Virus record (IMG/VR): IMGVR_UViG_3300036885_000228
Location: 30,368 to 94,367 of that record
Length of the DNA: 64,000 nucleotides
Direction: 5' to 3' (one strand)
Source: a virus
Taxonomy: Duplodnaviria; Heunggongvirae; Uroviricota; Caudoviricetes
Under the pieces are notes generated by a model. The model did not search any database. It saw only the letters and a program-made list of their open reading frames with translations, and had not been told where the DNA came from. The position numbers and the translations under genes are program-made. Below, piece by piece: positions 17,899 to 58,738 of the stretch. Position 1 is the stretch's first letter, and each line of letters starts with the position of its first letter.

Positions 17899-18053
17899 TG
17901 TAGTTTACAAACTTTAATAAATATGTTATAATCAATTTATGGTTAAAAGATGTTAACTTGTTCAGTATCTTGAATTTTTTATTTATAAATGTTTATAAAA
18001 ATTCATTGTTAATAACTTCTAGATTAACCTAATATTAAACAAAATATCACCTA

Positions 18054-18082
18054 TTTACAAACCTTTACAAATGGTATATAAT
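18054..18082 (+). promoter_or_regulatory. Sigma70-like promoter TTTACA-N17-TATAAT inside 130-bp conserved element, copy A
   Basis: TTTACA 18054-18059, 17-nt spacer, TATAAT 18077-18082. Element A spans about 17949-18083. Confidence 0.6.
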
Positions 18083-18210
18083 GATTATAGGTGGTTGGAA
18101 AGAGGATAGTTCATTACAATTGAATAAACTTACAAACTTAAAAAAAATAACGATTCTTTCAATAGCAGAAAATTAAATTTTCTTCCTCTGAAAGAACAAC
18201 TCTAAAAAAT

Positions 18211-21502: not shown

Positions 21503-22801
21503 ATGATATCAATTTCAAAAGATGCTAATAAAAATTATCTTGCAAAAATTGTAAGATTAGAAGGACTCAAAAAACATTCAAATGCTGACAAACTTCAAAC
21601 TGTCATTATTGATTTTCAGACAGTTATTACTGACATGAATGCAAAAGATGGAGATCTTTATGTGTTTTTTCCTCTTGAATGTCAGATTAACTTTGAATTT
21701 CTTGCACAAAATAATTCTTTTCGAGATAAAGAATTAAACAAAGATAAAACTCAATCTGGATTCTTTGAGAAGAATTGTCGAGTACGTGCAATGAAACTCA
21801 GAGGTGAAAGATCAATGGGCTATATAGTACCTATATCTGTAGTAGAAAAATTTACTAGAGATCATCTGAGTGACAGGGTTGGTAAAGAATTTGATACAAT
21901 TAATGACATTTTGTTGTTAAAGAAGTATGTTACGGTAGTTTCTCAGTCACAGCAAAGATTTCAAGGTAAGAAACCTCGAATTTCTAGACTTGTAGAAAAC
22001 CAATATCGGTTGCATATTGAAACAGAAAATCTTAAAAAGAATGCTTTTATGATTAAACCACAAGATGAGATAATGTTGAGTTACAAACTTCATGGGACCT
22101 CATTCATTGTCGGTCATGTGTTAGGTAAGAAAAAATTAAATATAATCGAGAAGACATTCAAAATATTAGGCATCAAAATTCTTGATACTGAATATGACTA
22201 TTTTTATGGAAGTAGAAAAGTTGTAAAGAATGAATTCGAGACTAAATTCAAAAATGATTTCTATGATGGAGACCTTTGGTTAGATATCAAAGACGAACTT
22301 AAAGACAAAATACCAAAGGGTTATACCGTCTATGGTGAATGTGTTGGATATACTAAAGGAGGCAAATATATTCAAACTCAATATGATTACGGGTGTGCAA
22401 TGGGACAAAAGAAATGTTATGTTTATAGAATTACTCATACGAATATAGATGGATATGTTGTAGATTTGTCAACTAATCAAATACGTGAATTCTGCATAAA
22501 GTATGGATTGAATTATATTCATGTATTTTTTCAAGGTCAAGCAGGAGAATTATATCCCGAACTCAATCCTGAGGAGTATTGGCATGAAGAGTTCATAAAA
22601 AATCTCGAAAGAGATTATACCGACAAAGATTGTTTCATGTGTAAAAATAAAGTTGCTGAAGAAGGAATTGTTCTACGAAAAGAAGGATTATTCTCTTTTG
22701 AAGCATATAAACTTAAATCGTTTCGTTTTTATGAATGGGAAACTTCTCAATTAGACAAAGAAGTTACTCGTCTTGAAGACGTGACTGGTTTTGACAATTA
22801 G
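21503..22801 (+). CDS. RNA ligase (Rnl2-like KxHG nucleotidyltransferase) with N-terminal tRNA-binding OB domain (Myf/CsaA/EMAP-like)
   Basis: N-terminus ..KKHSNADKLQTVIIDF..NAKDGDLYVFFPLEC..KLRGERSMGYIV matches the tRNA_bind signature (HPxADKL...GD.V..A..G...K.RG..S.GML). Motif I SYKLHGTSF resembles the T4 Rnl2 EKIHGTNF. Later ..YGECVGY.. and ..EEGIVLRKEG.. resemble motifs IV and V. Confidence 0.6.
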   Translation: MISISKDANKNYLAKIVRLEGLKKHSNADKLQTVIIDFQTVITDMNAKDGDLYVFFPLECQINFEFLAQNNSFRDKELNKDKTQSGFFEKNCRVRAMKLRGERSMGYIVPISVVEKFTRDHLSDRVGKEFDTINDILLLKKYVTVVSQSQQRFQGKKPRISRLVENQYRLHIETENLKKNAFMIKPQDEIMLSYKLHGTSFIVGHVLGKKKLNIIEKTFKILGIKILDTEYDYFYGSRKVVKNEFETKFKNDFYDGDLWLDIKDELKDKIPKGYTVYGECVGYTKGGKYIQTQYDYGCAMGQKKCYVYRITHTNIDGYVVDLSTNQIREFCIKYGLNYIHVFFQGQAGELYPELNPEEYWHEEFIKNLERDYTDKDCFMCKNKVAEEGIVLRKEGLFSFEAYKLKSFRFYEWETSQLDKEVTRLEDVTGFDN

Positions 22802-23132
22802 TATGAAATTTACAGTATCAAAGGATCCAGTTGAATTATTAAGAAGATGTGGATATGTACAATATGGTCAAAATACTTATTCATATCAGAAGAAAATAAA
22901 GTTTGGTCAATTTCATGCAGTGATAGAATATAATGCAAGAATTATTCATTTGCATATTGATAAAGAAAATGATAGAGGAACATTTGACCATCATGATACA
23001 ATTCAAAATAATTTAGAAGTAGTCAATGAATCAATAAAGATAAAGAATCAACAGAGAACAGAAAAAGAAATTAGATATGAAGATAAATATAATCTTTCTG
23101 CTTGGAAACGAGCATGGAAACAATCAAAATGA
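22791..23132 (+). CDS. Hypothetical protein
   Basis: 113-aa ORF. Confidence 0.35.
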   Translation: MTISMKFTVSKDPVELLRRCGYVQYGQNTYSYQKKIKFGQFHAVIEYNARIIHLHIDKENDRGTFDHHDTIQNNLEVVNESIKIKNQQRTEKEIRYEDKYNLSAWKRAWKQSK

Positions 23133-23383
23133 AAGGATATTGGATGACACAAAATGGAGATGAAATAAAATATAAACAATTAAAAGATAGTCATCTTTTA
23201 AATATTTTAAAATGGATTAACAGAAGAGCAGATGAAGGAATGATAATTGAATATGGAGGAGGAGGAATTGACATTGAAGATTTATGGTATGATAGTGAAG
23301 AAATAAAAGGACAAAAAGTTTTAGAGTATTATGATTACGAGGATTTATTAAAAGAAGCTAAAAAAAGATTATTAATACACTAA
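23102..23383 (+). CDS. Hypothetical protein
   Basis: 93-aa ORF. Confidence 0.35.
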   Translation: METSMETIKMKGYWMTQNGDEIKYKQLKDSHLLNILKWINRRADEGMIIEYGGGGIDIEDLWYDSEEIKGQKVLEYYDYEDLLKEAKKRLLIH

Positions 23384-23384
23384 T

Positions 23385-23870
23385 ATGAAATATTTTTTTA
23401 CAAGTGATGAACATTTTGGACATATGAGGATAATTGAATATTGTAATCGTCCATTTAAAGATGTGAAAGAGATGGATGATGAGATAATCAAAAGATTTAA
23501 TTCTGTAGTTTCTCAAGAAGACATAACTTATCATCTTGGAGATTTTACTTTTAGAAAGAAAAATGAAGCAGAAAATTATATCAGACGAATGCATGGCCAA
23601 CATATTTTTATAAAGGGGTCTCACGATTATTGGGCAGAAAAAGACAATTTACCATATATAATTGAAACTAAAATTGATGATGTACAATTAGTATTATGTC
23701 ATTATCCACTTAAGTCGTGGCCTGCATCATTTCATGGGAGTGTAAACATATTTGGTCATGAACATGGTGTATTAACGAATTTAGAACCTAGACAACTTGA
23801 TGTTGGAGTTGATACTAATAATTTCTATCCTTATTCACTAGAAGACGTAATCAAAAAATTAAAATTATGA
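23385..23870 (+). CDS. Calcineurin-like metallophosphoesterase
   Basis: Motifs FTSDEHFGH, HLGDF, GSHDYW and FGHEHG. Confidence 0.7.
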   Translation: MKYFFTSDEHFGHMRIIEYCNRPFKDVKEMDDEIIKRFNSVVSQEDITYHLGDFTFRKKNEAENYIRRMHGQHIFIKGSHDYWAEKDNLPYIIETKIDDVQLVLCHYPLKSWPASFHGSVNIFGHEHGVLTNLEPRQLDVGVDTNNFYPYSLEDVIKKLKL

Positions 23871-24187
23871 AAATAGCATTCGATGTTGATGACACGATTT
23901 GGAAAATTGATGTAAAACATAAAAGACAAGTTCCTGATTATGACTTGATACAAGTTCTTAGATGGTTTTCAAATAATGGTGACGAAGTATTTGTCTGGTC
24001 TGCCGGGGGTCTTGATTATGCTCAGATGATTGTTGACAAACTAGGTTTGACTGATTCAGTTAAAGTTATACCAAAGGGAAAATTTGGAGATAAACAATTA
24101 GACATTGATTTGACTTTTGATGATGATGAATTTGAACAAATTGGGAAAGTGAATGTAATTGTAAAACGACCTAAATATAATGAGTAA
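23867..24187 (+). CDS. Small HAD-superfamily phosphatase-like protein
   Basis: AFDVDDTIW (DxDxT motif I), then ..VWSAGG.. and ..KGKFGDK..DIDLTFDDD. Confidence 0.5.
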   Translation: MKIAFDVDDTIWKIDVKHKRQVPDYDLIQVLRWFSNNGDEVFVWSAGGLDYAQMIVDKLGLTDSVKVIPKGKFGDKQLDIDLTFDDDEFEQIGKVNVIVKRPKYNE

Positions 24188-24194
24188 TGTTATG

Positions 24195-24350
24195 ATAAAA
24201 AATCAAATATGCAATAGAATTGGTTGTAATAAAGAAATTGAAGGAGAAGGAATCATAACTTCAGTCGGTATTTTTTGTTCTGAAGAATGTAGAAAAGAAA
24301 TAGAGAAAAAGCTAATTAAATTATTTATAGATTTTCCAATTAATTTATGA
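24195..24350 (+). CDS. Small zinc-ribbon protein (51 aa, below cutoff)
   Basis: MIKNQICNRIGCNKEIEGEGIITSVGIFCSEECRKEIEKKLIKLFIDFPINL. Its stop overlaps the Pnk start (ATGA). Confidence 0.35.
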   Translation: MKNQICNRIGCNKEIEGEGIITSVGIFCSEECRKEIEKKLIKLFIDFPINL

Positions 24351-25213
24351 AACAGAAAATAATAATGACAAAAGGATTAATTGCATCAGGAAAAACGACT
24401 TGGGCAAAAGAGCAAGTAAAGAAAAGTAATGGAAAAATTAAAAGAATAAATAAGGATGATTTAAGACAGATGTTGCATAATTCTGAATATCCTATTTGGA
24501 AAGAAGACAAAGATAGATTTATCTTAGATGCTAGAGATGCATTAATCAAACAGTCAATACTTTCAGGATTTTCTATTATCGTCGATGATACAAATTTCAA
24601 TCCATTTCATGAAAAACGATTAAAAGTACTTGCTATAGAACTTAATGCCGATTTCGAGATCAATGATAGTTTTTTGAATGTACCATTGAGTGTATGTATT
24701 GAACGAGATTTTAAAAGAGAAAAACCTGTAGGAAATAAAGTCATTTCTGAAATGTATAACAAATATGTCAAAGGTCGAGAATATATTCAAAAAGATGAAT
24801 CATTACCTAAAGCAATAATTTGTGACATTGATGGAACACTAGCACTTTCAACTGGAAGAAATATTTTTGACTGGTCAAAAGTACACACAGATGAAGTGAA
24901 TCACATGGTTGCTAGAGTAATTAATCTATTCAAAAAAGAAGGATATAAAATTCTTATCACTACTGGAAGAGATGGTGAATGTGAAGAACAAACTAAAAAA
25001 TGGTTGAAAGATAATCTAATTGATTTTGATGAATATTATACTCGTCCTGCTGGAAATAATGAAAAAGATTGCATAATCAAAGAGAGAATTTATCGTCAAG
25101 AAATTTTACTAAAGTACAATGTGATATTGTGTCTTGATGACAGGAACCAGGTAGTTGAGACTTGGCGTAAATTAGGTTTAGAATGCTGGCAGGTTCAGGA
25201 CGGGTCATTTTAA
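24347..25213 (+). CDS. pseT: Polynucleotide 5'-kinase/3'-phosphatase (T4 Pnk-like)
   Basis: P-loop GLIASGKTTWA. HAD motif ICDIDGTLA. The C-terminus ..LCLDDRNQVVETWRKLGLECWQVQDGSF closely parallels the T4 Pnk C-terminus ..[25 protein letters not shown]. Confidence 0.85.
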   Translation: MKQKIIMTKGLIASGKTTWAKEQVKKSNGKIKRINKDDLRQMLHNSEYPIWKEDKDRFILDARDALIKQSILSGFSIIVDDTNFNPFHEKRLKVLAIELNADFEINDSFLNVPLSVCIERDFKREKPVGNKVISEMYNKYVKGREYIQKDESLPKAIICDIDGTLALSTGRNIFDWSKVHTDEVNHMVARVINLFKKEGYKILITTGRDGECEEQTKKWLKDNLIDFDEYYTRPAGNNEKDCIIKERIYRQEILLKYNVILCLDDRNQVVETWRKLGLECWQVQDGSF

Positions 25214-25495
25214 TTTGTAAATGTTAGAAAGAATGACATCTGGATGACATCTAGAAAGGAAAACTAGACAAAATATAGGAATATATGACTGACATATAGA
25301 CCAATATCTGACATCAATCTGATGACAACAGAATAATACTGAATCTTAACTTATAGAATATATGATACTAGAATCCGTTAAACTAGAAAGTTATTAACTT
25401 TTCATGAACACTTGAATTTTTTTTATTTATAAATGTTTGTAAGATTCACTGTTAATAACTTCTAGACTTGTTTAATATTAAACAAAAATTCACCT

Positions 25496-25524
25496 ATTTA
25501 CAAACACTTATAAATTTGTTATAA
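25496..25524 (+). promoter_or_regulatory. Promoter TTTACA-N17-TATAAT inside conserved element copy B
   Basis: TTTACA 25496-25501, TATAAT 25519-25524. Element B spans about 25387-25527. It points into an ORF-free region. Confidence 0.6.
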
Positions 25525-25530
25525 TGAATC

Positions 25531-26360
25531 TATACAGTTAAATAAGTTCATTGATACTTTCTACTGGTCAAACCTTTCTAGGGTGATTGGTAAAAGTTTT
25601 GAAAATACAGAGAGTACAACATAGAGATAGAAACCATTTTTCGGCTTAGTCCGAAAACCAGTCTCATAGTTGTACTTTCCACTCTTTTCAGAACATTACA
25701 ATATTAGTCTATTAATTGTCATTCTTAATTGCTGGAGATTATGTCAAAAGCTCCCTGGTAAGTCCTGCAGGACTGAACGGGCAAGGGTATGACATCATGC
25801 ATATCATTTAAGAATGTCAACTAGTAGATTAAGTACTTTTCAAATGTGGGATTTTGAGGCGTTGTTGATAGGTTGCTTATGCGTAAAAGACTGTTAAGTT
25901 CAAACTCAAACTTATCAGTTGCCTATCTGTAAAAAGGAGAAAGTAAGAATAGGGGATACCTTATTTTTATATAGCTCCACCGCAAAAGGATTTAGCGACA
26001 AAGAGTTTGAGTCGCCAGTAGGGGCACCCGAGAAAATCTCTCAAACCCTCACATTTGCAAGGTACAGGTAAGTTCTTTAATGGAAGAAAAAATACAGTGA
26101 AACCCAACTCAAGATGAGCGGTTCTCGCTAATCAAAGTTGCAACTAAGATTAGTAAACTGTACATAAAAAATCTAACTCCCCGTCAAAGGAGAGAGATGA
26201 TACACCTTCCTGAAATGCCTTTAAAATAATCCTGCTTTTTTTAGCAATAGGTTTGGCTGTCAATTGGGACCTATCATCTATGTGGAACGTTAAGGCGGTC
26301 GGCATGGTTTTGAAAAATTAAATCAACGACTTAGCTGTTCTATTCTTCCATTAAAGAATT
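25531..26360 (+). ncRNA. Candidate large structured noncoding RNA (unclassified)
   Basis: ~0.85 kb with no ORF of 60 aa or more on either strand, in a genome that is otherwise about 95% coding. Visibly GC-richer than its flanks. Many local hairpins (e.g. gtcctgcaggac, agcgacaaagagtttgagtcgc, tgacat..atgtca, gtttgc/gcaaac-like). A strong promoter lies immediately upstream. Confidence 0.4.
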
Positions 26361-26382
26361 TATCAAAATCAAAACAAAAATT

Positions 26383-27543: not shown

Positions 27544-27712
27544 TATGGATATTTTTAGAACAAGAATTCTTTGATAAATTAGCAGGAAAATTAGAAGAAC
27601 TATTCCCAAAACATCAATGTAAAGAGAGAAGTCAAGCTTTAGTTTTGAATGCATTTGCTAATTTATTTTTTAGAGAATTAATCAAAAAATAAATGACAAA
27701 AAGTTATAGGTA

Positions 27713-27741
27713 TTTACAAATATTTATAAATATGTTATAAT
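27713..27741 (+). promoter_or_regulatory. Promoter TTTACA-N17-TATAAT
   Basis: TTTACA 27713-27718, TATAAT 27736-27741. Upstream of the ParB-like gene. Confidence 0.55.
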
Positions 27742-27804
27742 GTAAATATAATTAAATAATTGATTGCATTTGATGATTAAATCAAACAATCAAAACTAAA
27801 AACT

Positions 27805-34355: not shown

Positions 34356-35273
34356 TTGAAATATATGGATTTAAAAATTCAGGTTCGAAATTATTTGTTG
34401 AAAGAAAGAGAAGCAAGATCGAAAAAGAAAGATGCATTTTGGCCATCTGAAACTGAAGGAAATATTTTTGACATCTATCATGGATTCAAAGGTACTCTAC
34501 CAACTAACCCAATGACTGTTGAAACTCAGTTTGCATTAGGAATGAGAAAGAAACTTGAAGAAGCGGTTGTTGAAATTTTTGGAAAGATGAACATTTTAGT
34601 CTCTCCAGCATCTTATACAAATAGAGAAGGTGTATTGATTGAGAAACCGGATCAACATAGAGTTGAGATAACGAGAATGGGAATCAAGATCAACGGTTAT
34701 ATGGATGCAATAGTTCGAGATGATGGAAAGGAAGTACCAGTAGAGATTAAGACGAGTTACGGTTCATATTCAAAAAATGATTTACTTGCAGGACATCCAA
34801 AGGTTGCATATCTAAAACAACTTGCAATTTATATGGATTCATTGGGAGTCAATCTTGGATATTTATTTGTCGTAAATTTTGAAAGGGACTTGATTATCGA
34901 TGACGTTTATCAATTTCCATTAGTTAAAATAGGTGACATTTTCAAATGTGGTGATATTGAATTCAATTTAGAGAAAGATGTCTATGCTAGATGGAAGATG
35001 ATTTGGGACACATACATTGTTCCAGATATTGAACCAGTTTCTGAATACAGGTATAAATATGATGTCAAAACAATTGACTGGAAAAGATTACCAGCTTCAA
35101 GAATTGCTAATGCAAGAAACAACAAAGCAGTAATTGGTGATTGGCAAATTTTATATTCATCATATAAAGACCTTTTAATTCAAAAAGAAGGAACTGAACC
35201 TGGATATGACGAAAATGAATTGGAATACATTAAAAAATGTACAAGTGGATACACTACTTGGAACCGAAAGTAA
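34356..35273 (+). CDS. PD-(D/E)xK exonuclease (YqaJ/lambda-Exo-like)
   Basis: ..GYMDAIVRDDGKEVPVEIKTSYG.. matches the D..D..E-x-K catalytic pattern of YqaJ-type viral recombination exonucleases. Confidence 0.55.
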   Translation: MKYMDLKIQVRNYLLKEREARSKKKDAFWPSETEGNIFDIYHGFKGTLPTNPMTVETQFALGMRKKLEEAVVEIFGKMNILVSPASYTNREGVLIEKPDQHRVEITRMGIKINGYMDAIVRDDGKEVPVEIKTSYGSYSKNDLLAGHPKVAYLKQLAIYMDSLGVNLGYLFVVNFERDLIIDDVYQFPLVKIGDIFKCGDIEFNLEKDVYARWKMIWDTYIVPDIEPVSEYRYKYDVKTIDWKRLPASRIANARNNKAVIGDWQILYSSYKDLLIQKEGTEPGYDENELEYIKKCTSGYTTWNRK

Positions 35274-35274
35274 T

Positions 35275-36177
35275 ATGCATAAAACAATTCACCCAATGCT
35301 TGCAGGAAGTTTACCTCCAGAAAAATTGAAGGAATTATGGAATAATCCGGATTGGATTTGTGAAGAAAAGATTGATGGGAGTCGATACGTATTACAATAT
35401 GATAGTCATGGAATTCCCTTATTGACAAGTAGAAAAAGATCAGTTAAGACAAATGAGATGGTTGATAAGACTCAGAATTTGATGGGTTATGTATGTGAGA
35501 AAAATCTAAAATTCAAAAACACAATTATTGATGGAGAAATACAAGGAGGTAATTCATTCGGTGATACAGTATCTCTAATGGGTTCGACTCCGGAGAGAGC
35601 TCAGCAAATGCTTAAAGATGGATTTAAAGTCAAATATATTGTATACGACATTTTAGAATACCAAGGAACTGATTTACGTAATCGACCATTTAATATTAGA
35701 CGATTAAAGCTTCAAAATTTTCTATTGAATTATCATAATCCGTACATTGAATTGATTCGAGTATTACCAAATGAACCGTCTAGTTTTGATCAGATTGTTA
35801 GTGAGGGTGGAGAAGGTGTTATACTAAAACATAAAATGAGTCAATATCAAGAAGACAAACGTGGAAAGGACTGGATAAAAGTAAAGAAGACCGATACGTT
35901 CGATGGTATAATCATTGGGATGACAGAAGGAACCGGTAAATATAAAAAATCAATGGGTGCATTACGAATAGGTCAATATGTCGGAGATGAAATTGTAGAA
36001 GTTGCAACTATTTCTGGAATGACAGATGACCAAAGAGATTATTTTAGTCAGAATATTCAAAAGTTGAATGGTCAAGTAATTGAATTTGAAGCACAGGAAA
36101 AAACAAAGAAGAGATATCGACATCCAAGATTTGTAAGACTTAGAAATGATAAATCACCAACAGAATGTAAATTTTAA
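35275..36177 (+). CDS. ATP-dependent DNA ligase
   Basis: Motif I CEEKIDGSRY (KxDGxR). The ORF-track start 35206 overlaps the upstream gene, so ATG 35275 (MHKTIHPMLAG..) is more likely. Confidence 0.8.
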   Translation: MHKTIHPMLAGSLPPEKLKELWNNPDWICEEKIDGSRYVLQYDSHGIPLLTSRKRSVKTNEMVDKTQNLMGYVCEKNLKFKNTIIDGEIQGGNSFGDTVSLMGSTPERAQQMLKDGFKVKYIVYDILEYQGTDLRNRPFNIRRLKLQNFLLNYHNPYIELIRVLPNEPSSFDQIVSEGGEGVILKHKMSQYQEDKRGKDWIKVKKTDTFDGIIIGMTEGTGKYKKSMGALRIGQYVGDEIVEVATISGMTDDQRDYFSQNIQKLNGQVIEFEAQEKTKKRYRHPRFVRLRNDKSPTECKF

Positions 36178-42055: not shown

Positions 42056-42128
42056 TATTTATAAATGTTTGTAAAATTGAAGATTTCATTTAGTTGAATT
42101 TGTTTAATATTAGATAAGAACTGGCCTA

Positions 42129-42157
42129 TTTACAAACCTTTACAAATGTGTTATAAT
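42129..42157 (+). promoter_or_regulatory. Promoter TTTACA-N17-TATAAT inside conserved element copy C
   Basis: TTTACA 42129-42134, TATAAT 42152-42157. Element C spans about 42055-42168. Confidence 0.6.
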
Positions 42158-42203
42158 GATTATAGGTAGTTCATTGACAACTGAATAGAGCTTATAAAAA
42201 TGT

Positions 42204-52153: not shown

Positions 52154-52190
52154 TTGAAAGTTGTTAACAAGTTATGAACAGTTTGACCTA

Positions 52191-52219
52191 TTTACAAATA
52201 TTTATAAATATGATATAAT
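52191..52219 (+). promoter_or_regulatory. Promoter TTTACA-N17-TATAAT
   Basis: TTTACA 52191-52196, TATAAT 52214-52219. Preceded by the GTTGTTAACAAGTTATGAAC box. Confidence 0.55.
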
Positions 52220-53392: not shown

Positions 53393-54856
53393 ATGAGCAA
53401 GTTTAACAAAAAAAAGTTAGGAACAAAGACAATCAATAAAGCAGGAGGTCAAGCATTTAAGGAGACTACTGAGTTAGAACTCGTTTCTCTTTTACTTACT
53501 TCTTTCTTAAAGGACAAATTTTACGAAAAAGAAGAAGAGCAATTAGAAAGATTGCAGAATTTAGTCGGTGGGTTAAAAGACAAAAAATTTGCTGCTAAAG
53601 CTGCAATTTATGCTCGTACAGTTTTTGGAATGAGATCAATTACTCATGCATTGATTGGAGAAATTTGTAAGATGGTCAAAGGTGAACAATGGGTTAAGAA
53701 TGCAGTAGAAAAAGCAGTTTATCGTCCTGATGACATGCTTGAAATTCTTGCTTATGTTAGAGACGATAAAACTACACCAATTCCAAATTCATTGAAAAAG
53801 GGATTAAGATTAGCAATCAATAAGTTTGACAAGTATTCTTTAGCTAAGTATAAAGGAGGAGGACACGAATTCAAAATGGTCGATTTAATTAATTTAGTAC
53901 ATCCAAAAGGTTCTGGTAAATTGGCTGAAATTTTTAAAGAATTAGTTGAAGGGAAATTGAAGACTGAAAATACTTGGGAAAGAAATTTATCAGATGCTGG
54001 ACAAAAAGTTAAAGATATTGAAGACGAAAATGAGAAAGAGGAAGCATTGAAAGAAGCAAAGGATAATGTCTGGAAAGACATGATTAAGGAAAAGAAAATT
54101 GGAACATTTGCTTTATTGAGAAATCTTCGTAACATTGTTCAGCAATCTCCAGATTCAATTGACGATGCTTGTGAATTACTTGTTGATGAAAAGAAAATTA
54201 AAAATTCATTGATTCTGCCTTTTAGATTCAAAACTGCAATGGACGAATTAGGTAAGGTAGATGGTAGTAGGAAAATTTTAACTGCAATTAGTAAAGCATT
54301 GGATATTTCAGTTTCAAATGTGCCAAAATTTGATGGGAAGACTCTTGTAGTAATTGATAAATCTGGTTCGATGAATGGGAAACCAATAGAAATTGCTTCT
54401 ATCTTTGGTGCAATATTATACAAATCAAATGATGCAGATTTAATGTATTTTTCTGAAGGTACAAAGAATGTCAATCTTAATACCGAGGATAGTACAATGA
54501 CAATTGCTAATGAGATTGAACACGATGGTTGGGGTGGAGGAACTGATTTTACTGTAATTTTTCCAGCACTTACAAAAAAGTATGATAGGATTATAATCTT
54601 AAGTGATATGCAAGGTTGGGTTAATGATTGGAGAGGAGAATCAACACCAATAAGAGGATTTAGAGATTATAAAATAAGACTTGGTATCAATCCGAAGATT
54701 TATTCATTCGATCTAAACGGGTATGGGACACTTGAGTTCCCCGAGAATGATGTATTCTGCATTGCAGGATGGAGTGATAAAATTTTTGATGTAATGAAGA
54801 TTATGGAACAAGATAGAAATGCATTAATTAAAAAGATAAACGAAATTGAACTTTAA
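53393..54856 (+). CDS. rsr: Ro60 orthologue (TROVE domain plus vWA domain)
   Basis: N-terminus MSKFNKKKLGTKTINKAGGQAFKETTELELVSLLLTSFLKDKFYE...AAIYARTVFGMRSITHAL is TROVE-like. C-terminus ..LVVIDKSGSMNG.. is the vWA MIDAS DxSxS motif. Total 487 aa, as expected for Ro60. Confidence 0.75.
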   Translation: MSKFNKKKLGTKTINKAGGQAFKETTELELVSLLLTSFLKDKFYEKEEEQLERLQNLVGGLKDKKFAAKAAIYARTVFGMRSITHALIGEICKMVKGEQWVKNAVEKAVYRPDDMLEILAYVRDDKTTPIPNSLKKGLRLAINKFDKYSLAKYKGGGHEFKMVDLINLVHPKGSGKLAEIFKELVEGKLKTENTWERNLSDAGQKVKDIEDENEKEEALKEAKDNVWKDMIKEKKIGTFALLRNLRNIVQQSPDSIDDACELLVDEKKIKNSLILPFRFKTAMDELGKVDGSRKILTAISKALDISVSNVPKFDGKTLVVIDKSGSMNGKPIEIASIFGAILYKSNDADLMYFSEGTKNVNLNTEDSTMTIANEIEHDGWGGGTDFTVIFPALTKKYDRIIILSDMQGWVNDWRGESTPIRGFRDYKIRLGINPKIYSFDLNGYGTLEFPENDVFCIAGWSDKIFDVMKIMEQDRNALIKKINEIEL

Positions 54857-54869
54857 AAATATATTTGAG

Positions 54870-55200
54870 AAGTGAGAAAACGGGTTCATCTATTGAATTA
54901 ACATTCAATGTATTCTGGTTTGCGTAAGCAAACTCTGAAATTACTGAATAATTGCCAGCGGCAATTGTTTTAACATCACGACATGTAATGGGACGCAACA
55001 TGGTCAGTAAACTACTGATTCAAAGTTTTTAGAGTTATTTTTACTAATTCTAATTCAAAACTTAGTCTAGTAAGGAGACTTAATCCCACCGTTTTCAGTT
55101 TTCTCTCAAATATTATCTGGATTAGAATTTACATAGTTCCGAAAGTGAGAATAAAGTTACTTCTCCTTATGAAAATACTTTATTCACTTTTTCTTCGGGA
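54870..55200 (+). ncRNA. Structured noncoding region downstream of rsr (candidate second Y-RNA-like/ncRNA)
   Basis: No ORF. Several clean hairpins: attgaat-taac-attcaat, gtttgc-gtaa-gcaaac (GNRA loop), aattgcc-agc-ggcaatt, agtct-agtaagg-agact. Confidence 0.3.
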
Positions 55201-55204
55201 CAAT

Positions 55205-55275
55205 GCGACTGTAAGATAATGGCAATCTGACAGTTTTCCAAACTGTAAACGTGGGTCCGATTCCCACTAGTCGCA
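55205..55275 (+). tRNA. tRNA-Gly(UCC)
   Basis: Acceptor gcgactg/tagtcgc. D arm agat-aatggca-atct. Anticodon arm acagt-tttccaa-actgt (anticodon tcc). T arm gtggg-tccgatt-cccac with an unusual C at position 55. Discriminator a. No encoded CCA. Confidence 0.7.
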
Positions 55276-55294
55276 CAAAATTGTTTATTTGTAC

Positions 55295-55431
55295 GTGAAT
55301 AGAAGTGACATCAGAGTTACTTCTCATTGTAAGAGAGTGGTCATTGGTTCGAGTCCAATTTTTAGTCGAAAGGCTAAAATAGCTCAGTTGGTAGAGCACT
55401 TAAATTTCTCTGATAAATTTTCTCTATTCAC
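55295..55431 (+). ncRNA. Y-RNA-like RNA with tRNA-like module (T arm plus GAAA-capped acceptor-like stem plus D arm), closed by long terminal helices
   Basis: T arm attgg-ttcgagt-ccaat (55343-55359). Stem ttttagtc / GAAA loop / ggctaaaa (55360-55379). D arm gctc-agttggta-gagc (55382-55397). No anticodon arm follows. Terminal helix gtgaataga(55295-55303)/tctattcac(55423-55431) and inner helix atcagag(55310-55316)/ctctgat(55408-55414). Lies 440 nt downstream of the Ro60 gene. Confidence 0.55.
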
Positions 55432-55449
55432 TTATAAGTAAATAATCAA

Positions 55450-57045: not shown

Positions 57046-57130
57046 GCATTAGTAGACGACTATGGAAGTCGGCTTGATTGTAGATCAAGCATCCGTAAGG
57101 GTCATAAGAGTTCGATTCTCTTCTAATGCA
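57046..57130 (+). tRNA. tRNA-Tyr(GUA), type II
   Basis: Acceptor gcattag/ctaatgc. Anticodon arm cttga-ttgtaga-tcaag (anticodon gta). Long variable arm atcc-gtaa-gggt. T arm aagag-ttcgatt-ctctt. Confidence 0.75.
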
Positions 57131-57135
57131 CAATT

Positions 57136-57207
57136 GGAAGAGTAGCATAACGGTCAATGCAATGGTTTGAAGCACCATAGAAGAAAGTTCAATTCTTTCC
57201 TCTTCCA
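57136..57207 (+). tRNA. tRNA-Phe(GAA)
   Basis: Acceptor ggaagag/ctcttcc. D arm gcat-aacggtca-atgc. Anticodon arm atggt-ttgaagc-accat. T arm gaaag-ttcaatt-ctttc. Confidence 0.8.
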
Positions 57208-57215
57208 CTATAAAT

Positions 57216-57286
57216 GCTATAGTAGGCAAGAGGCTAGCCACGAGATTGCAAATCTTGAAACATGGGTTCGACTCCCATCTATAGCT
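57216..57286 (+). tRNA. tRNA-Cys(GCA)
   Basis: Acceptor gctatag/ctatagc. Anticodon arm cgaga-ttgcaaa-tcttg (one G-U pair). T arm atggg-ttcgact-cccat. The D stem is only 3 bp. Confidence 0.65.
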
Positions 57287-57291
57287 CAAAT

Positions 57292-57364
57292 GCAGGGGCA
57301 TGTTCCAAGGCTGGCGGTTGCGACTCCAAATCGTGACGGAAGAGTTCGATTCTCTTACCCTGTG
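57292..57364 (+). tRNA. tRNA-like gene with CCA (Trp) anticodon loop; imperfect cloverleaf
   Basis: T arm aagag-ttcgatt-ctctt. Anticodon-like arm tgcga-ctccaaa-tcgtg. Acceptor gcagggg/accctgt has one mismatch. No convincing D stem, so it may be degenerate. Confidence 0.35.
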
Positions 57365-57373
57365 CTATTAGGT

Positions 57374-57446
57374 TGGCAGGTATCATAACTGGTAATGATT
57401 TCGACTGTTAATCGAAAATATACTGGTTCGAATCCAGTCTTGCCAG
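57374..57446 (+). tRNA. tRNA-Asn(GUU)
   Basis: Acceptor tggcagg/cttgcca (U1-A72, as in many bacterial tRNA-Asn). D arm tcat-aactggta-atga. Anticodon arm ttcga-ctgttaa-tcgaa. T arm actgg-ttcgaat-ccagt. Confidence 0.8.
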
Positions 57447-57476
57447 CAAATATTACACTGAGAATTTAACATTATT

Positions 57477-57547
57477 GCCGGTGTAATTCAAAGGTTAGAA
57501 TGGCAGTTCTGTAAACTGCTCATAGGGTTCGAATCCTCTCACCGGCT
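57477..57547 (+). tRNA. tRNA-like gene with UGU (Thr) anticodon; atypical
   Basis: Perfect acceptor gccggtg/caccggc. D arm attc-aaaggtta-gaat. Anticodon arm gcagt-tctgtaa-actgc with C at position 33. The T stem is weak (taggg/cctct). Confidence 0.45.
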
Positions 57548-57554
57548 CACATTA

Positions 57555-57725
57555 TGCAAAATTATCTTAAAAGAGAAATATTTTTAACTCGATTTACTAA
57601 AGATACAACAATCAAATGTCCGAGTTGTCAAAGAGTTCTTGATTATCCAGATTTTGTTTGCGAATCGTGCAAGACGCAAATCGTAATCAAATTCAAACCA
57701 GAAGACAAATTGTGGGAAAGATAAG
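57555..57725 (+). CDS. Small zinc-ribbon protein (57 aa, below cutoff)
   Basis: MQNYLKREIFLTRFTKDTTIKCPSCQRVLDYPDFVCESCKTQIVIKFKPEDKLWER. Confidence 0.3.
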
Positions 57726-57925
57726 ATGTTTCAGATGATCGATTGTATTGGGCATATAAGAATATATGTACATTGACAATTTTATTCACTGAGGTCATTC
57801 TGGTGACAACAGCAAATAAGCAAGATGAGGTGGTATGGGCCTGGGGTCTGGAGTCGGATTAGTAAGACATCGCATTTGCATTGCGAAAATAACGGGTGCA
57901 ATTCCCGTCAGATCCACATCTCATT

Positions 57926-58575: not shown

Positions 58576-58598
58576 AATAGATTATCAATCTATTTTTT
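58576..58598 (+). terminator. Weak AT-rich hairpin plus T-run
   Basis: aatagat-tatca-atctatt followed by tttt. Confidence 0.3.
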
Positions 58599-58671
58599 AT
58601 TTGTAAATGTTTATAAAAATTCACTGTTAACAACTTCTAGATTTACCTAATATTAAATAAAATATTACCTA

Positions 58672-58700
58672 TTTACAAACATTAACAAATGTGTTATAAT
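58672..58700 (+). promoter_or_regulatory. Promoter TTTACA-N17-TATAAT inside conserved element copy D
   Basis: TTTACA 58672-58677, TATAAT 58695-58700. Element D spans about 58595-58703. Confidence 0.6.
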
Positions 58701-58738
58701 GAATATAATTAAACATATAATTTAATAATCAAGAATGT

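What the first reader, a model, noticed from the sequence alone, without database searches (positions are those of the whole stretch)
21503..25213. tRNA/RNA repair cassette: Rnl2-like ligase fused to a tRNA-binding domain, metallophosphoesterase, HAD phosphatase and T4-type Pnk
Phage T4 counters host anticodon nucleases with Pnk plus Rnl1. Here a T4-like Pnk (24347..25213) is clearly conserved through to the C-terminal ..ECWQV..G.F. It sits with a ligase that is not Rnl1-like. The ligase carries the Rnl2-type KxHG motif I (YKLHGTSF) behind an N-terminal OB domain with the HxxADKL...GD...K.RG..S.G signature of Myf/CsaA/EMAP tRNA-binding domains. That fusion could target the ligase to tRNA substrates. 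Between them lie a calcineurin-type phosphoesterase and a separate small DxDxT HAD. In bacterial Pnkp-type healing enzymes the phosphoesterase resolves 2',3'-cyclic phosphates. Together these give a complete end-healing and end-sealing toolkit, plausibly a counter-defence against tRNA-cleaving systems (PrrC, RloC, colicin-like, or retron/PARIS-type tRNA nucleases). The tRNA-binding-domain/ligase fusion is the unusual element.
Basis: partly seen in the sequence, partly recalled or inferred. Interest (0 to 1): 0.75.

Follow-up and report, generated by a model that had tools for sequence, protein, structure and literature searches.

The report
Phage RNA repair genes: ligase plus kinase-phosphatase
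An uncultivated phage carries a well-known type of RNA break-repair gene pair (an Rnl5-family RNA ligase and a T4-type polynucleotide kinase-phosphatase) with two extra phosphatase genes wedged between them; the "unusual" ligase fusion is the normal architecture of that ligase family, so the finding is real but ordinary.

Summary

- **The "unusual fusion":** The tRNA-binding-like OB fused to the ligase is the defining feature of the Rnl5/DraRnl clade. It was described in 2007 and solved in 2015. The family is large: PHROG 968, matches in 416 phage records, and about 2,300 50%-identity clusters.
- **Pnk:** It is a full-length T4 Pnkp homologue (E 8e-43).
- **Linkage:** A PNK-type kinase lies within 6 kb of the ligase in 26 of 48 ligase lineages. 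Its phosphatase partner varies (HAD, HD or metallophosphoesterase), sometimes with RlaP or a CCA-adding enzyme nearby.
- **Metallophosphoesterase:** It is a recurrent but loose partner, found in 7 of 48 lineages. Its closest homologues sit elsewhere in phage genomes.
- **Small HAD:** It is a genuine cap-less HAD, but it is never linked to the ligase in other genomes.

Verdict: a new member of a known phage RNA heal-and-seal module. A counter-defence role is plausible but inferred. Rnl5 enzymes seal nicks in duplexes, and their OB domain is known to be needed for ligase adenylylation and nick sealing; no role in tRNA targeting has been shown for it.

The parts
21503..22801 (+). Rnl5-clade ATP-dependent RNA ligase, 432 aa, of the long phage subfamily. 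Layout: N-terminal OB domain about aa 1-141, conserved linker 142-188, nucleotidyltransferase domain 189-420. Motif I is K195-L-H197-G198, motif III Y277-G-E279, motif IV E387-G388, motif V K403-x-K405. There is no C-terminal domain.
22803..23132 (+). Small ORF of unknown function. 109 aa from the ATG at 22803; 113 aa if the TTG at 22791 is used.
   Evidence: ORF list. Gene call in the identical contigs L089-L091. A partial homologue follows the ligase in L088, which is 82% identical at DNA level. No significant Pfam or PHROG match. Absent from 84 ligase loci.
23114..23383 (+). Small ORF of unknown function. 89 aa as called; 93 aa from the TTG at 23102.
   Evidence: No family match. Absent from 84 ligase loci.
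23385..23870 (+). Calcineurin-type dinuclear metallophosphoesterase, 161 aa. Motifs: D8-x-H10, G52-D53, G78-S-H80-D81 (Ser in place of the canonical Asn), H106, H125-x-H127. It is a candidate accessory 3'-end-healing enzyme.
   Evidence: PHROG 547, 4.5e-45. PDB 1xm7, 3.9e-8. Conserved metal-ligand positions in a 28-sequence alignment. A homologue lies within 6 kb of the ligase in 7 of 48 ligase lineages; in three of these it sits beside a kinase with no Pnk-type HAD detected (kinase-only ORF read directly in L008 only). The family is very common in phages generally, matching 1,419 records.
23867..24187 (+). Minimal cap-less HAD phosphatase, 106 aa. Motif I D6-x-D8-x-T10, motif II S45, motif III K70, motif IV D85-D86. 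Its substrate is unknown, and it is probably not a dedicated part of the repair module.
24180..24350 (+). Small ORF (52-56 aa) of unknown function, with paired Cys motifs.
   Evidence: Only a weak zf-FLZ match, E 0.049. Absent from the related loci.
24347..25213 (+). T4-type bifunctional polynucleotide 5'-kinase / 3'-phosphatase (Pnkp), 288 aa. P-loop kinase about aa 1-150; DxDxT HAD phosphatase about aa 154-288.
   Evidence: PDB 1LTQ, 7.9e-43, covering aa 3-288. PF25109 7e-49 plus AAA_33 1.4e-13. PHROG 505, 4e-92. A Pnk lies adjacent to or near the ligase in related phages.
17946..18084 (+). Upstream copy of a repeated promoter-region element. It is the likely start of the transcription unit (about 18.1-25.2 kb) that contains the cassette.
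   Evidence: 80% identical to 25387-25527. Further copies lie at 27711, 42056, 52183 and 58593.
25387..25532 (+). Next copy of the promoter-region element. It includes TTTACA-17-TGnTATAAT at 25497-25525 and marks the downstream boundary of the cassette's transcription unit.

Best explanation
This is a phage RNA heal-and-seal module of a known kind. Its conserved core is a T4-type Pnkp plus an Rnl5-clade RNA ligase. The seven genes overlap or abut each other, so they are probably co-transcribed and translationally coupled.

Proposed mechanism:
1. [quoted passage not shown] The source could be a host abortive-infection or toxin nuclease, or a competing element.
2. The DxDxT phosphatase domain of Pnkp converts the cyclic or 3' phosphate to a 3'-OH. 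The neighbouring metallophosphoesterase may act here as a second or alternative phosphoesterase.
3. The P-loop domain of Pnkp phosphorylates the 5'-OH.
4. The ligase self-adenylylates on Lys195. In Rnl5 enzymes this step requires the N-terminal OB domain.
5. The ligase transfers AMP to the 5'-phosphate and seals the nick. It most likely acts on breaks held in a duplex-like context, such as nicked tRNA or rRNA whose halves stay base-paired.

Shown here: gene presence, folds, catalytic motifs, and conserved ligase-kinase linkage with interchangeable phosphatases. Inferred: the substrates, a counter-defence role, and participation of the metallophosphoesterase. The small HAD and the three unannotated ORFs are probably passengers.
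For: - Fold and family assignments.
- All ligase motif residues are invariant across 31 homologues.
- The Pnk aligns with T4 Pnkp end to end, with the P-loop and DxDxT retained.
- The ligase is immediately followed by Pnkp in L001, L002 and L005. In L003 an RlaP gene lies between them.
- In 48 ligase lineages (70% identity clusters of 84 loci), a PNK-type kinase lies within 6 kb in 26. Partners: Pnk-type HAD in 11, HD in 9, metallophosphoesterase in 7, RlaP in 4, CCA-adding enzyme in 2, Ro60 in 1 (Pfam checks).
- L008 shows ligase, then a kinase-only ORF, then a metallophosphoesterase. This is the bacterial Pnkp design split into separate genes.
- The window encodes a separate ATP-dependent DNA ligase at 35206-36177, so the 432-aa enzyme is not the replicative ligase. 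It also has a Ro60 orthologue, a YrlA-like RNA and 7 tRNA genes.
- The literature describes exactly this repertoire in phages: RNA ligase, PNK-HAD, standalone HAD, calcineurin-like or HD phosphatases, RlaP and TROVE (PMC7824862).
Against: - No experiment bears on any member of this long phage ligase subfamily.
- Characterised Rnl5 enzymes seal duplex nicks and are weak on single-stranded RNA. Their physiological substrates are described as uncharted. The only phenotype, for DraRnl, concerns recovery from ionising radiation, which suggests DNA repair (PMC4408790, PMC5397189).
- T4-type Pnkp also heals DNA ends (my own knowledge).
- The ligase scores far below the TIGR02306 cut-off (36.8 vs 151 bits), so its properties may differ from DraRnl and NgrRnl.
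- About half of the ligase lineages show no kinase within 6 kb.
- The metallophosphoesterase family occurs in 1,419 phage records, many of which were not among the ligase matches. Its closest homologues (64% and 59% identity) are not near a ligase or Pnk.
- No host, and no nuclease that the module would counter, is known.
Confidence: 0.62

Rival explanations
1. The ligase and Pnkp act on DNA or on RNA-DNA junctions rather than on RNA. They would seal nicks whose 3'-OH side is a short ribonucleotide patch, or heal 5'-OH/3'-P DNA breaks during phage replication, recombination or damage by host nucleases.
For: DraRnl loss sensitises Deinococcus to ionising radiation and delays genome reassembly. 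Rnl5 enzymes accept DNA in the 5'-PO4 and template strands. The authors state it is undetermined whether Rnl2 and Rnl5 enzymes repair DNA, RNA or both (PMC5397189). The cassette sits in an early or replication-type region with ParB, primase-helicase, DNA ligase and PolB downstream.
Against: The phage has its own ATP-dependent DNA ligase. Ligase homologues are repeatedly linked to RNA-specific partners: RlaP, a CCA-adding enzyme, Ro60/TROVE and kinase-HD fusions. Rnl5 enzymes strictly require RNA on the 3'-OH strand (PMC4408790).
Confidence: 0.15
2. The N-terminal domain is a tRNA-binding module that targets the ligase to anticodon-cleaved tRNA. That would make the protein a functional analogue of T4 Rnl1, dedicated to countering PrrC, RloC or PARIS-type tRNA nucleases.
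Against: The same OB is present in every Rnl5 enzyme. In DraRnl and NgrRnl it is required for ligase adenylylation and nick sealing, and no tRNA specificity is reported in the Rnl5 papers read here (PMC1807946, PMC4408790). NgrRnl is feeble on single-stranded RNA, whereas loop breaks are said to be the province of Rnl1 and Rnl4 (PMC4408790). No tRNA_bind Pfam match appears for the window protein, even at E<=10.
Confidence: 0.2
3. The metallophosphoesterase, the small HAD and the three small ORFs are unrelated accessory genes (morons) inserted between an ancestrally adjacent ligase-Pnkp pair. Their roles would lie elsewhere, for example nucleotide or cyclic-nucleotide signal hydrolysis, or protein dephosphorylation.
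For: In the closest relatives with long contigs, the ligase and Pnkp are directly adjacent (L001, L002, L005). HAD homologues sit next to SNF2 helicase, DnaB/primase or RecA/SHMT and never near the ligase. The closest metallophosphoesterase homologues are in unrelated contexts. PHROG 547-type proteins occur in 1,419 phage records. Calcineurin-like phage phosphodiesterases have been proposed to target nucleotide signals (PMC7824862).
Against: A metallophosphoesterase recurs near the ligase in 7 of 48 lineages. In three of them (L008, L027, L032 clusters) it accompanies a kinase with no Pnk-type HAD detected, as though it supplies the missing phosphatase. Cap-less HADs typically act on macromolecular substrates (my own knowledge), and the HAD's structural neighbours include Pnkp phosphatase domains. 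The overlapping start and stop codons suggest co-expression with the repair genes.
Confidence: 0.45

Closest known systems
Rnl5 family RNA ligases (Deinococcus DraRnl / DR_B0094; Naegleria NgrRnl, PDB 5COT)
   Different: About 90 aa longer, with a conserved 45-aa linker and insertions. Only 16% identical to NgrRnl. Fails the TIGR02306 cut-off. Belongs to a separate, mainly phage-borne subfamily (PHROG 968; typically 425-450 aa). None of its members has been characterised, as far as the searches here show.
T4 Pnkp / Rnl1 tRNA restriction-repair system
   Same: A bifunctional T4-type Pnkp (kinase plus DxDxT phosphatase) is encoded with an ATP-dependent RNA ligase in a phage. The same heal-then-seal logic applies.
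T4 Rnl2 / kinetoplastid REL ligases (Rnl2 family)
   Different: It lacks the Rnl2 C-terminal alpha-helical domain and has the N-terminal OB instead.
Cluster-E mycobacteriophage Pnkp plus 'RNA ligase' (for example Tourach genes 76 and 88; Cjw1-type)
   Same: The same long ligase subfamily (32% identity over 99% of the query, annotated 'RNA ligase') is encoded in the same genome region as a polynucleotide kinase.
   Different: The genes lie 3.6 kb apart with unrelated genes between them. No metallophosphoesterase or small HAD is interposed.
Bacterial Pnkp (Clostridium thermocellum Pnkp: kinase-metallophosphoesterase-ligase) and the Pnkp/Hen1 system
   Same: It uses a calcineurin-type metallophosphoesterase to heal 2',3'-cyclic and 3'-phosphate ends (PMC2190708). 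The related loci L008, L027 and L032 appear to mirror this with a kinase, no detectable Pnk-type HAD, and a metallophosphoesterase next to the ligase (gene order read directly in L008).
   Different: Here the three activities are on separate proteins, a HAD-type Pnkp is also present, and there is no Hen1. The window phosphoesterase is most similar to Aquifex aq_1665 (1xm7); no CthPnkp or lambda phosphatase chain appeared at E<=1.

Membership tests
Rnl5 (DraRnl/NgrRnl) RNA ligases | N-terminal OB-fold module directly preceding the nucleotidyltransferase domain | tested here: met
Rnl5 (DraRnl/NgrRnl) RNA ligases | Covalent nucleotidyltransferase motifs, including the motif I lysine | tested here: met
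   PF09414 at aa 189-396. K195, H197, G198, E279, E387, G388, K403 and K405 are invariant in 31 homologues.
Rnl5 (DraRnl/NgrRnl) RNA ligases | No domain C-terminal to the nucleotidyltransferase domain | tested here: met
   Motif V is at 403-405 and the protein ends at 432. The model shows one helix (407-418) and then a disordered tail.
Rnl5 (DraRnl/NgrRnl) RNA ligases | Sequence membership in the curated DRB0094 equivalog (TIGR02306) | tested here: not met
   36.8 bits against a cut-off of 151.15, and only aa 19-218 aligned. It is a member of the clade by architecture and structure, but of a distinct subfamily.
Rnl5 (DraRnl/NgrRnl) RNA ligases | ATP- and Mn-dependent sealing of duplex nicks with an RNA 3'-OH strand | not testable with these tools
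   Biochemical property (PMC4408790, PMC1807946).
Rnl2 (T4 Rnl2 / REL) | Signature C-terminal alpha-helical domain after the nucleotidyltransferase domain | tested here: not met
   No C-terminal domain. T4 Rnl2 aligns only over 177-180 catalytic-domain residues.
tRNA_bind domain (PF01588: Trbp111/CsaA/EMAPII/PheRS-B2) | OB fold of the Myf/CsaA type | tested here: met
tRNA_bind domain (PF01588: Trbp111/CsaA/EMAPII/PheRS-B2) | Significant match to the family profile | tested here: not met
   No PF01588 hit for the window N domain at E<=10. A homologue gives only 0.046 over 21 residues. PDB profile hits to YgjH and MetRS-C have E 0.45-0.62.
tRNA_bind domain (PF01588: Trbp111/CsaA/EMAPII/PheRS-B2) | Binds tRNA | not testable with these tools
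   Needs binding assays.
T4-type polynucleotide kinase-phosphatase | N-terminal P-loop 5'-kinase fused to a C-terminal DxDxT 3'-phosphatase, with catalytic residues retained | tested here: met
   1LTQ 7.9e-43 over aa 3-288. GxxGKT, the DD-R segment, DIDGT and DDR are all aligned. PF25109 7e-49.
Calcineurin-like dinuclear metallophosphoesterases | Motifs DxH / GD / GNH(D/E) / H / GHxH | tested here: met
   D8, H10, D53, H80-D81, H106, H125 and H127 are conserved. Motif III reads GSHD in the window protein and in the majority consensus of its aligned homologues (a deviation). PHROG 547 4.5e-45; 1xm7 3.9e-8.
RNA end-healing metallophosphoesterases (CthPnkp phosphatase domain type) | Specific relationship to, or activity of, a 2',3'-cyclic phosphodiesterase / 3'-phosphatase acting on RNA ends | tested here: inconclusive
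   No sequence hit to CthPnkp or lambda phosphatase. The only support is contextual: a metallophosphoesterase lies beside a kinase with no detectable Pnk-type HAD next to the ligase in three lineages. Its closest homologues are elsewhere.
HAD superfamily phosphatases | Rossmannoid core with motifs I-IV (DxDxT, S/T, K, DD) | tested here: met
T4 Pnkp-Rnl1 anticodon-nuclease counter-defence system | Rnl1-type ligase, and a cognate host anticodon nuclease that is counteracted | tested here: not met

The most novel reading that the evidence does not exclude
The long, phage-borne Rnl5 subfamily (PHROG 968) might be a dedicated tRNA-break ligase. Its tRNA_bind-like OB would dock on nicked tRNA. The interposed metallophosphoesterase, and perhaps the cap-less HAD, would extend end-healing to termini that a T4-type Pnkp handles poorly. 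That would let the phage defeat repair-resistant tRNA nucleases. If true, it would give the Rnl5 family its first defined physiological substrate.
Probability: 0.15. Interest if true: 0.55.

Novelty: new member of a known kind. Interest (0 to 1): 0.25.

Why it matters
The physiological role of Rnl5 ligases is still described as uncharted (PMC5397189). This cassette and the neighbourhood survey add genomic evidence that the phage branch of the family works with RNA end-healing enzymes. Those partners include kinases paired with HAD, HD or metallophosphoesterase phosphatases, plus RlaP, a CCA-adding enzyme and Ro60.

That points to RNA repair during infection, probably as a counter to RNA-cleaving defences. 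The long phage subfamily would be a reasonable target for biochemistry.

It does not reveal a new kind of system. The architecture, the Pnkp pairing and the accessory phosphatases have all been catalogued before (PMC1807946, PMC4408790, PMC7824862).

Tried and rejected
- **DNA-level similarity of the cassette to known phages:** only an 89-nt match to Lak phages.
- **Searches for the small HAD, the three small ORFs and the upstream small ORFs near ligase homologues:** none found in 84 loci.
- **'Rnl2-like ligase':** rejected as a family assignment, because the C-terminal domain is absent.
- **'Novel fusion':** rejected, because it is the Rnl5 signature.
- **The 1.17-kb ORF-poor stretch downstream of Pnk, tested as a known ncRNA:** no Rfam hit at E<5. 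No blastn hit in phages. No hit in the 87 loci held at that point. Exact 33-mer and 22-mer scans of viral and metagenome contigs were empty.
- **Anchoring on neighbouring proteins to find relatives:** anchoring on the downstream 161-aa protein and on Pnk in metagenome contigs gave no relatives. Only 99.5-100% identical copies exist (L089-L091), so covariation could not be tested.
- **Burroughs & Aravind 2016 (NAR, RNA repair systems):** the paper could not be retrieved. Its content is cited only through PMC7824862.

Full report
**Observation.** The window looks like an uncultivated tailed-phage genome. GC content is about 30% and nearly all genes lie on the + strand. It encodes tail, glycosyltransferase, ParB, primase-helicase, DNA ligase, ThyX and PolB genes.

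The interval 21503-25213 holds seven tightly packed + strand ORFs whose start and stop codons overlap or abut (gene calls in identical contigs):
- ligase, 21503-22801 (432 aa)
- two unannotated ORFs, 22803-23132 and 23114-23383
- a metallophosphoesterase, 23385-23870 (161 aa)
- a small HAD, 23867-24187 (106 aa)
- a small ORF with paired Cys motifs, 24180-24350 (52-56 aa)
- Pnk, 24347-25213 (288 aa)

**The ligase.**
- Pfam finds PF21189 (PHA02142 OB-fold domain, aa 13-111, 9e-7) and PF09414 (RNA_ligase, aa 189-396, 2.4e-8). Both are above their curated cut-offs.
- PHROGs gives family 968, 'RNA ligase', at 1e-61 over the full length.
- NCBIfam gives a sub-threshold match to TIGR02306, the Deinococcus DR_B0094 (DraRnl) equivalog.
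- An AlphaFold2 model built on 31 homologues has pLDDT 88.3.
- K195/H197/G198 (motif I), E279 (III), E387-G388 (IV) and K403/K405 (V) are invariant in the family alignment.
- The chain ends 27 residues after motif V.

The protein is in the nucleotidyltransferase superfamily and has an N-terminal OB domain.

**What the architecture means.** An N-terminal OB related to the PheRS/tRNA-binding fold, followed by a nucleotidyltransferase domain with no C-terminal module, is exactly the definition of the DraRnl/NgrRnl 'Rnl5' clade.
- Raymond & Shuman (PMC1807946) described the DraRnl N module as a putative homologue of the PheRS B2 OB fold. They listed a phage homologue (Aeromonas phage 44RR2.8t).
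- DraRnl's essential motif I residues (T163, K165, H167, G168) correspond to the S-Y-K-L-H-G seen here.
- Unciuleac & Shuman (PMC4408790) named the family and state that it occurs in bacteria, viruses and unicellular eukaryotes.
- In both enzymes the N domain is needed for ligase adenylylation and overall nick sealing. It is not needed for the final step on a pre-adenylylated nick.
- NgrRnl is feeble on single-stranded RNA. Loop breaks are said to be the province of Rnl1 and Rnl4.
- The physiological substrates of Rnl5 are called 'uncharted', and the only phenotype is radiation sensitivity in Deinococcus (PMC5397189).

So the 'unusual fusion' is not unusual, and its proposed tRNA-targeting role is conjecture.

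**Family size and subfamily.**
- HMMER against 1.84 billion cluster representatives finds 2,311 with E<=1e-3 and 782 with E<=1e-30. Nearly all of the best 150 are 420-470 aa and match over the full length.
- tblastn finds homologues in 416 deposited phage genomes: Mycobacterium 296, Pseudomonas 37, Microbacterium 27, Gordonia 22, Lak Prevotella megaphages 15. The actinophage records among the 30 listed (Microbacterium, Gordonia, Mycobacterium) are annotated 'RNA ligase'.
- The window protein therefore belongs to a long (about 430 aa), mainly phage-borne subfamily. This subfamily is distinct from the roughly 340-aa DraRnl equivalog, which explains the failed TIGR02306 cut-off.
- My literature searches found no characterised member of this subfamily.

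**Pnk.** The 288-aa protein aligns end to end with T4 Pnkp (1LTQ, 7.9e-43). It retains the P-loop, the DD-R kinase segment, DIDGT and DDR. Pfam gives PF25109 at 7e-49.

**Linkage.**
- In contigs carrying the closest ligases, Pnkp follows immediately (L001, L002, L005). In L003 it is separated from the ligase by an RlaP nucleotidyltransferase.
- I fetched 79 further loci from IMG/VR and searched all 84 with the window proteins. I then searched again with a wider query set and clustered the ligases at 70% identity into 48 lineages.
- A PNK-type kinase lies within 6 kb in 26 of 48 lineages. Its phosphatase partner is a Pnk-type HAD in 11 lineages and an HD domain in 9 (fused to the kinase in L055 and L078).
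- A PHROG 547-type metallophosphoesterase is present in 7 lineages. RlaP occurs in 4, a CCA-adding enzyme in 2, and Ro60 in 1.
- In L008 the order is ligase, a 131-aa ORF, a kinase-only ORF (157 aa), then the metallophosphoesterase. L027 and L032 also pair a kinase with a metallophosphoesterase and have no detectable Pnk-type HAD. This is the bacterial Pnkp design split into separate genes.
- In cluster-E mycobacteriophage Tourach, the polynucleotide kinase (gene 76) and RNA ligase (gene 88) lie 3.6 kb apart.
- The same repertoire is described for jumbo phages by Iyer et al. (PMC7824862): ligase, PNK-HAD, standalone HAD, calcineurin-like or HD phosphatases, RlaP and TROVE.

**The two extra phosphatases.**

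*Metallophosphoesterase.* It has the dinuclear-metal motifs, with Ser replacing the canonical Asn of GNHD in the window protein and in the majority consensus of its aligned homologues. It resembles Aquifex aq_1665. It recurs near the ligase, but three points weaken the link:
- It belongs to a family found in 1,419 phage records.
- Its closest homologues (64% and 59% identity) are not near a ligase or Pnk.
- Ligase and Pnkp are directly adjacent in the nearest relatives with long contigs.

I regard its role in end-healing as plausible but unproven.

*The three small ORFs.* None has a significant family match.

**Transcription context.** A 100-140-nt promoter-region element recurs at 17946-18084, 25387-25532, 27711, 42056, 52183 and 58593. 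The copy at 25497-25525 contains TTTACA-17-TGnTATAAT. The cassette therefore lies at the end of a roughly 7-kb unit of mostly small genes.

**Mechanism and confidence.** I assign 0.62 to the following model.
- They are then sealed by the Rnl5-type ligase through a K195-AMP intermediate. Sealing most likely happens in duplex-like contexts such as nicked tRNA.
- This would serve the phage against RNA-cleaving defences.
- The component identities are near-certain. The substrates and the counter-defence role are inferred.

Rivals, scored as separate claims that partly overlap, so the numbers are not meant to sum to one:
- Repair of DNA or RNA-DNA junctions: 0.15.
- The interposed genes being unrelated morons: 0.45 overall, higher for the HAD than for the phosphoesterase.

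**Verdict.** This is a real but ordinary phage RNA repair module and a new member of a known kind. Interest is low to moderate (0.25). The residual value is that the long phage Rnl5 subfamily is uncharacterised, and its gene neighbourhoods argue for an RNA-repair role for a family whose physiology is still open.

**Things noticed outside the finding.** These are listed in detail separately:
- a candidate structured RNA of about 800 nt just downstream of Pnk
- a phage Ro60 / tRNA-Gly / YrlA-like module
- NAD-salvage genes next to ligase homologues

Noticed in passing
window 25533-26382 (+): An ORF-poor stretch of about 850 nt lies immediately downstream of Pnk. It is preceded by a strong promoter-like site (TTTACA-17-TGnTATAAT, 25497-25525). 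GC is 0.36-0.41 against a 0.30 background. The + strand folds at -231 kcal/mol (z = -6.4), against z = -2.7 for the - strand. There is no Rfam match at E<5 and no homologue in any collection searched; only identical copies exist (L089-L091). It is a candidate large structured ncRNA or a long 5' leader of the 26383-26868 gene. Unresolved.
   Followed up: partly
window 53393-55432 (+); also L085 8145-9832 and L005 2850-4253: The phage encodes a Ro60/TROVE orthologue (53393-54856, PF05731 2.9e-17). It is followed by tRNA-Gly(TCC) at 55205-55276. Next comes a full-length but sub-threshold YrlA (Y RNA-like, RF02553) match at 55297-55432 (41.8 bits, E 8e-8). A related phage contig (L085) has a YrlA-like hit (39.9 bits) directly upstream of its own TROVE gene. 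L005 has TROVE 2 kb upstream of its ligase-Pnk pair. The 348-nt spacer 54857-55204 also folds unusually well (z = -5.7).
   Followed up: partly
window 17946-18084, 25387-25532, 27711-27766, 42056-42159, 52183-52219, 58593-58707: A family of promoter-region repeats, 76-84% identical and 40-140 nt long, appears to delimit transcription units across the window.
   Followed up: partly
L008 3030-4508; L022 8051-9469; L025 7411-8424; Gordonia phages Neville and Trax: NAD-salvage genes lie directly beside homologues of this ligase in several lineages: nicotinamide phosphoribosyltransferase, an NMNAT-Nudix fusion, and an annotated PRPP synthetase. This may reflect a shared anti-defence island or a functional link. 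Not explored.
   Followed up: no
L055 8150-9124; L078 7310-8200; L060 7293-8063: PNK-type kinase fused to an HD phosphohydrolase domain lies immediately downstream of distant ligase homologues. L055 also has an RlaP gene there. In the L060 group a metallophosphoesterase lies upstream of the ligase. A separate 256-aa ORF lies downstream; I read it as HD-like from its H..HD motif and from recurrence in all 15 loci of the cluster, but Pfam did not call an HD domain in it. The phosphatase partner of the ligase appears to be interchangeable (HAD, HD or metallophosphoesterase).
   Followed up: partly
window 35206-36177 (+): A separate ATP-dependent DNA ligase is present (PF01068 1.4e-24 plus the DNA_ligase_OB_2 domain). 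The phage therefore has two nucleotidyltransferase-family ligases with different OB arrangements.
   Followed up: no
window 57046-57917 (+): A cluster of six tRNA genes (Tyr-GTA, Phe-GAA, Cys-GCA, Asn-GTT, Thr-TGT, Ala-TGC) lies downstream of the Ro60/Y-RNA module.
   Followed up: no
window 23385-23870, aa 78-81: Metallophosphoesterase motif III reads GSHD instead of the canonical GNHD. The Ser is the majority residue in the 28-sequence alignment (consensus IKGSHD), whereas the distant homologues L008 and L060 keep GNHD.
   Followed up: partly
alignment A2 (homologues of window 23867-24187): Several homologues of the small HAD carry a 15-30-residue Cys-rich insert (C..C....C pattern) between motif I and the conserved QVPDYD segment. 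It may be a zinc-binding mini-cap. The window protein lacks it.
   Followed up: no
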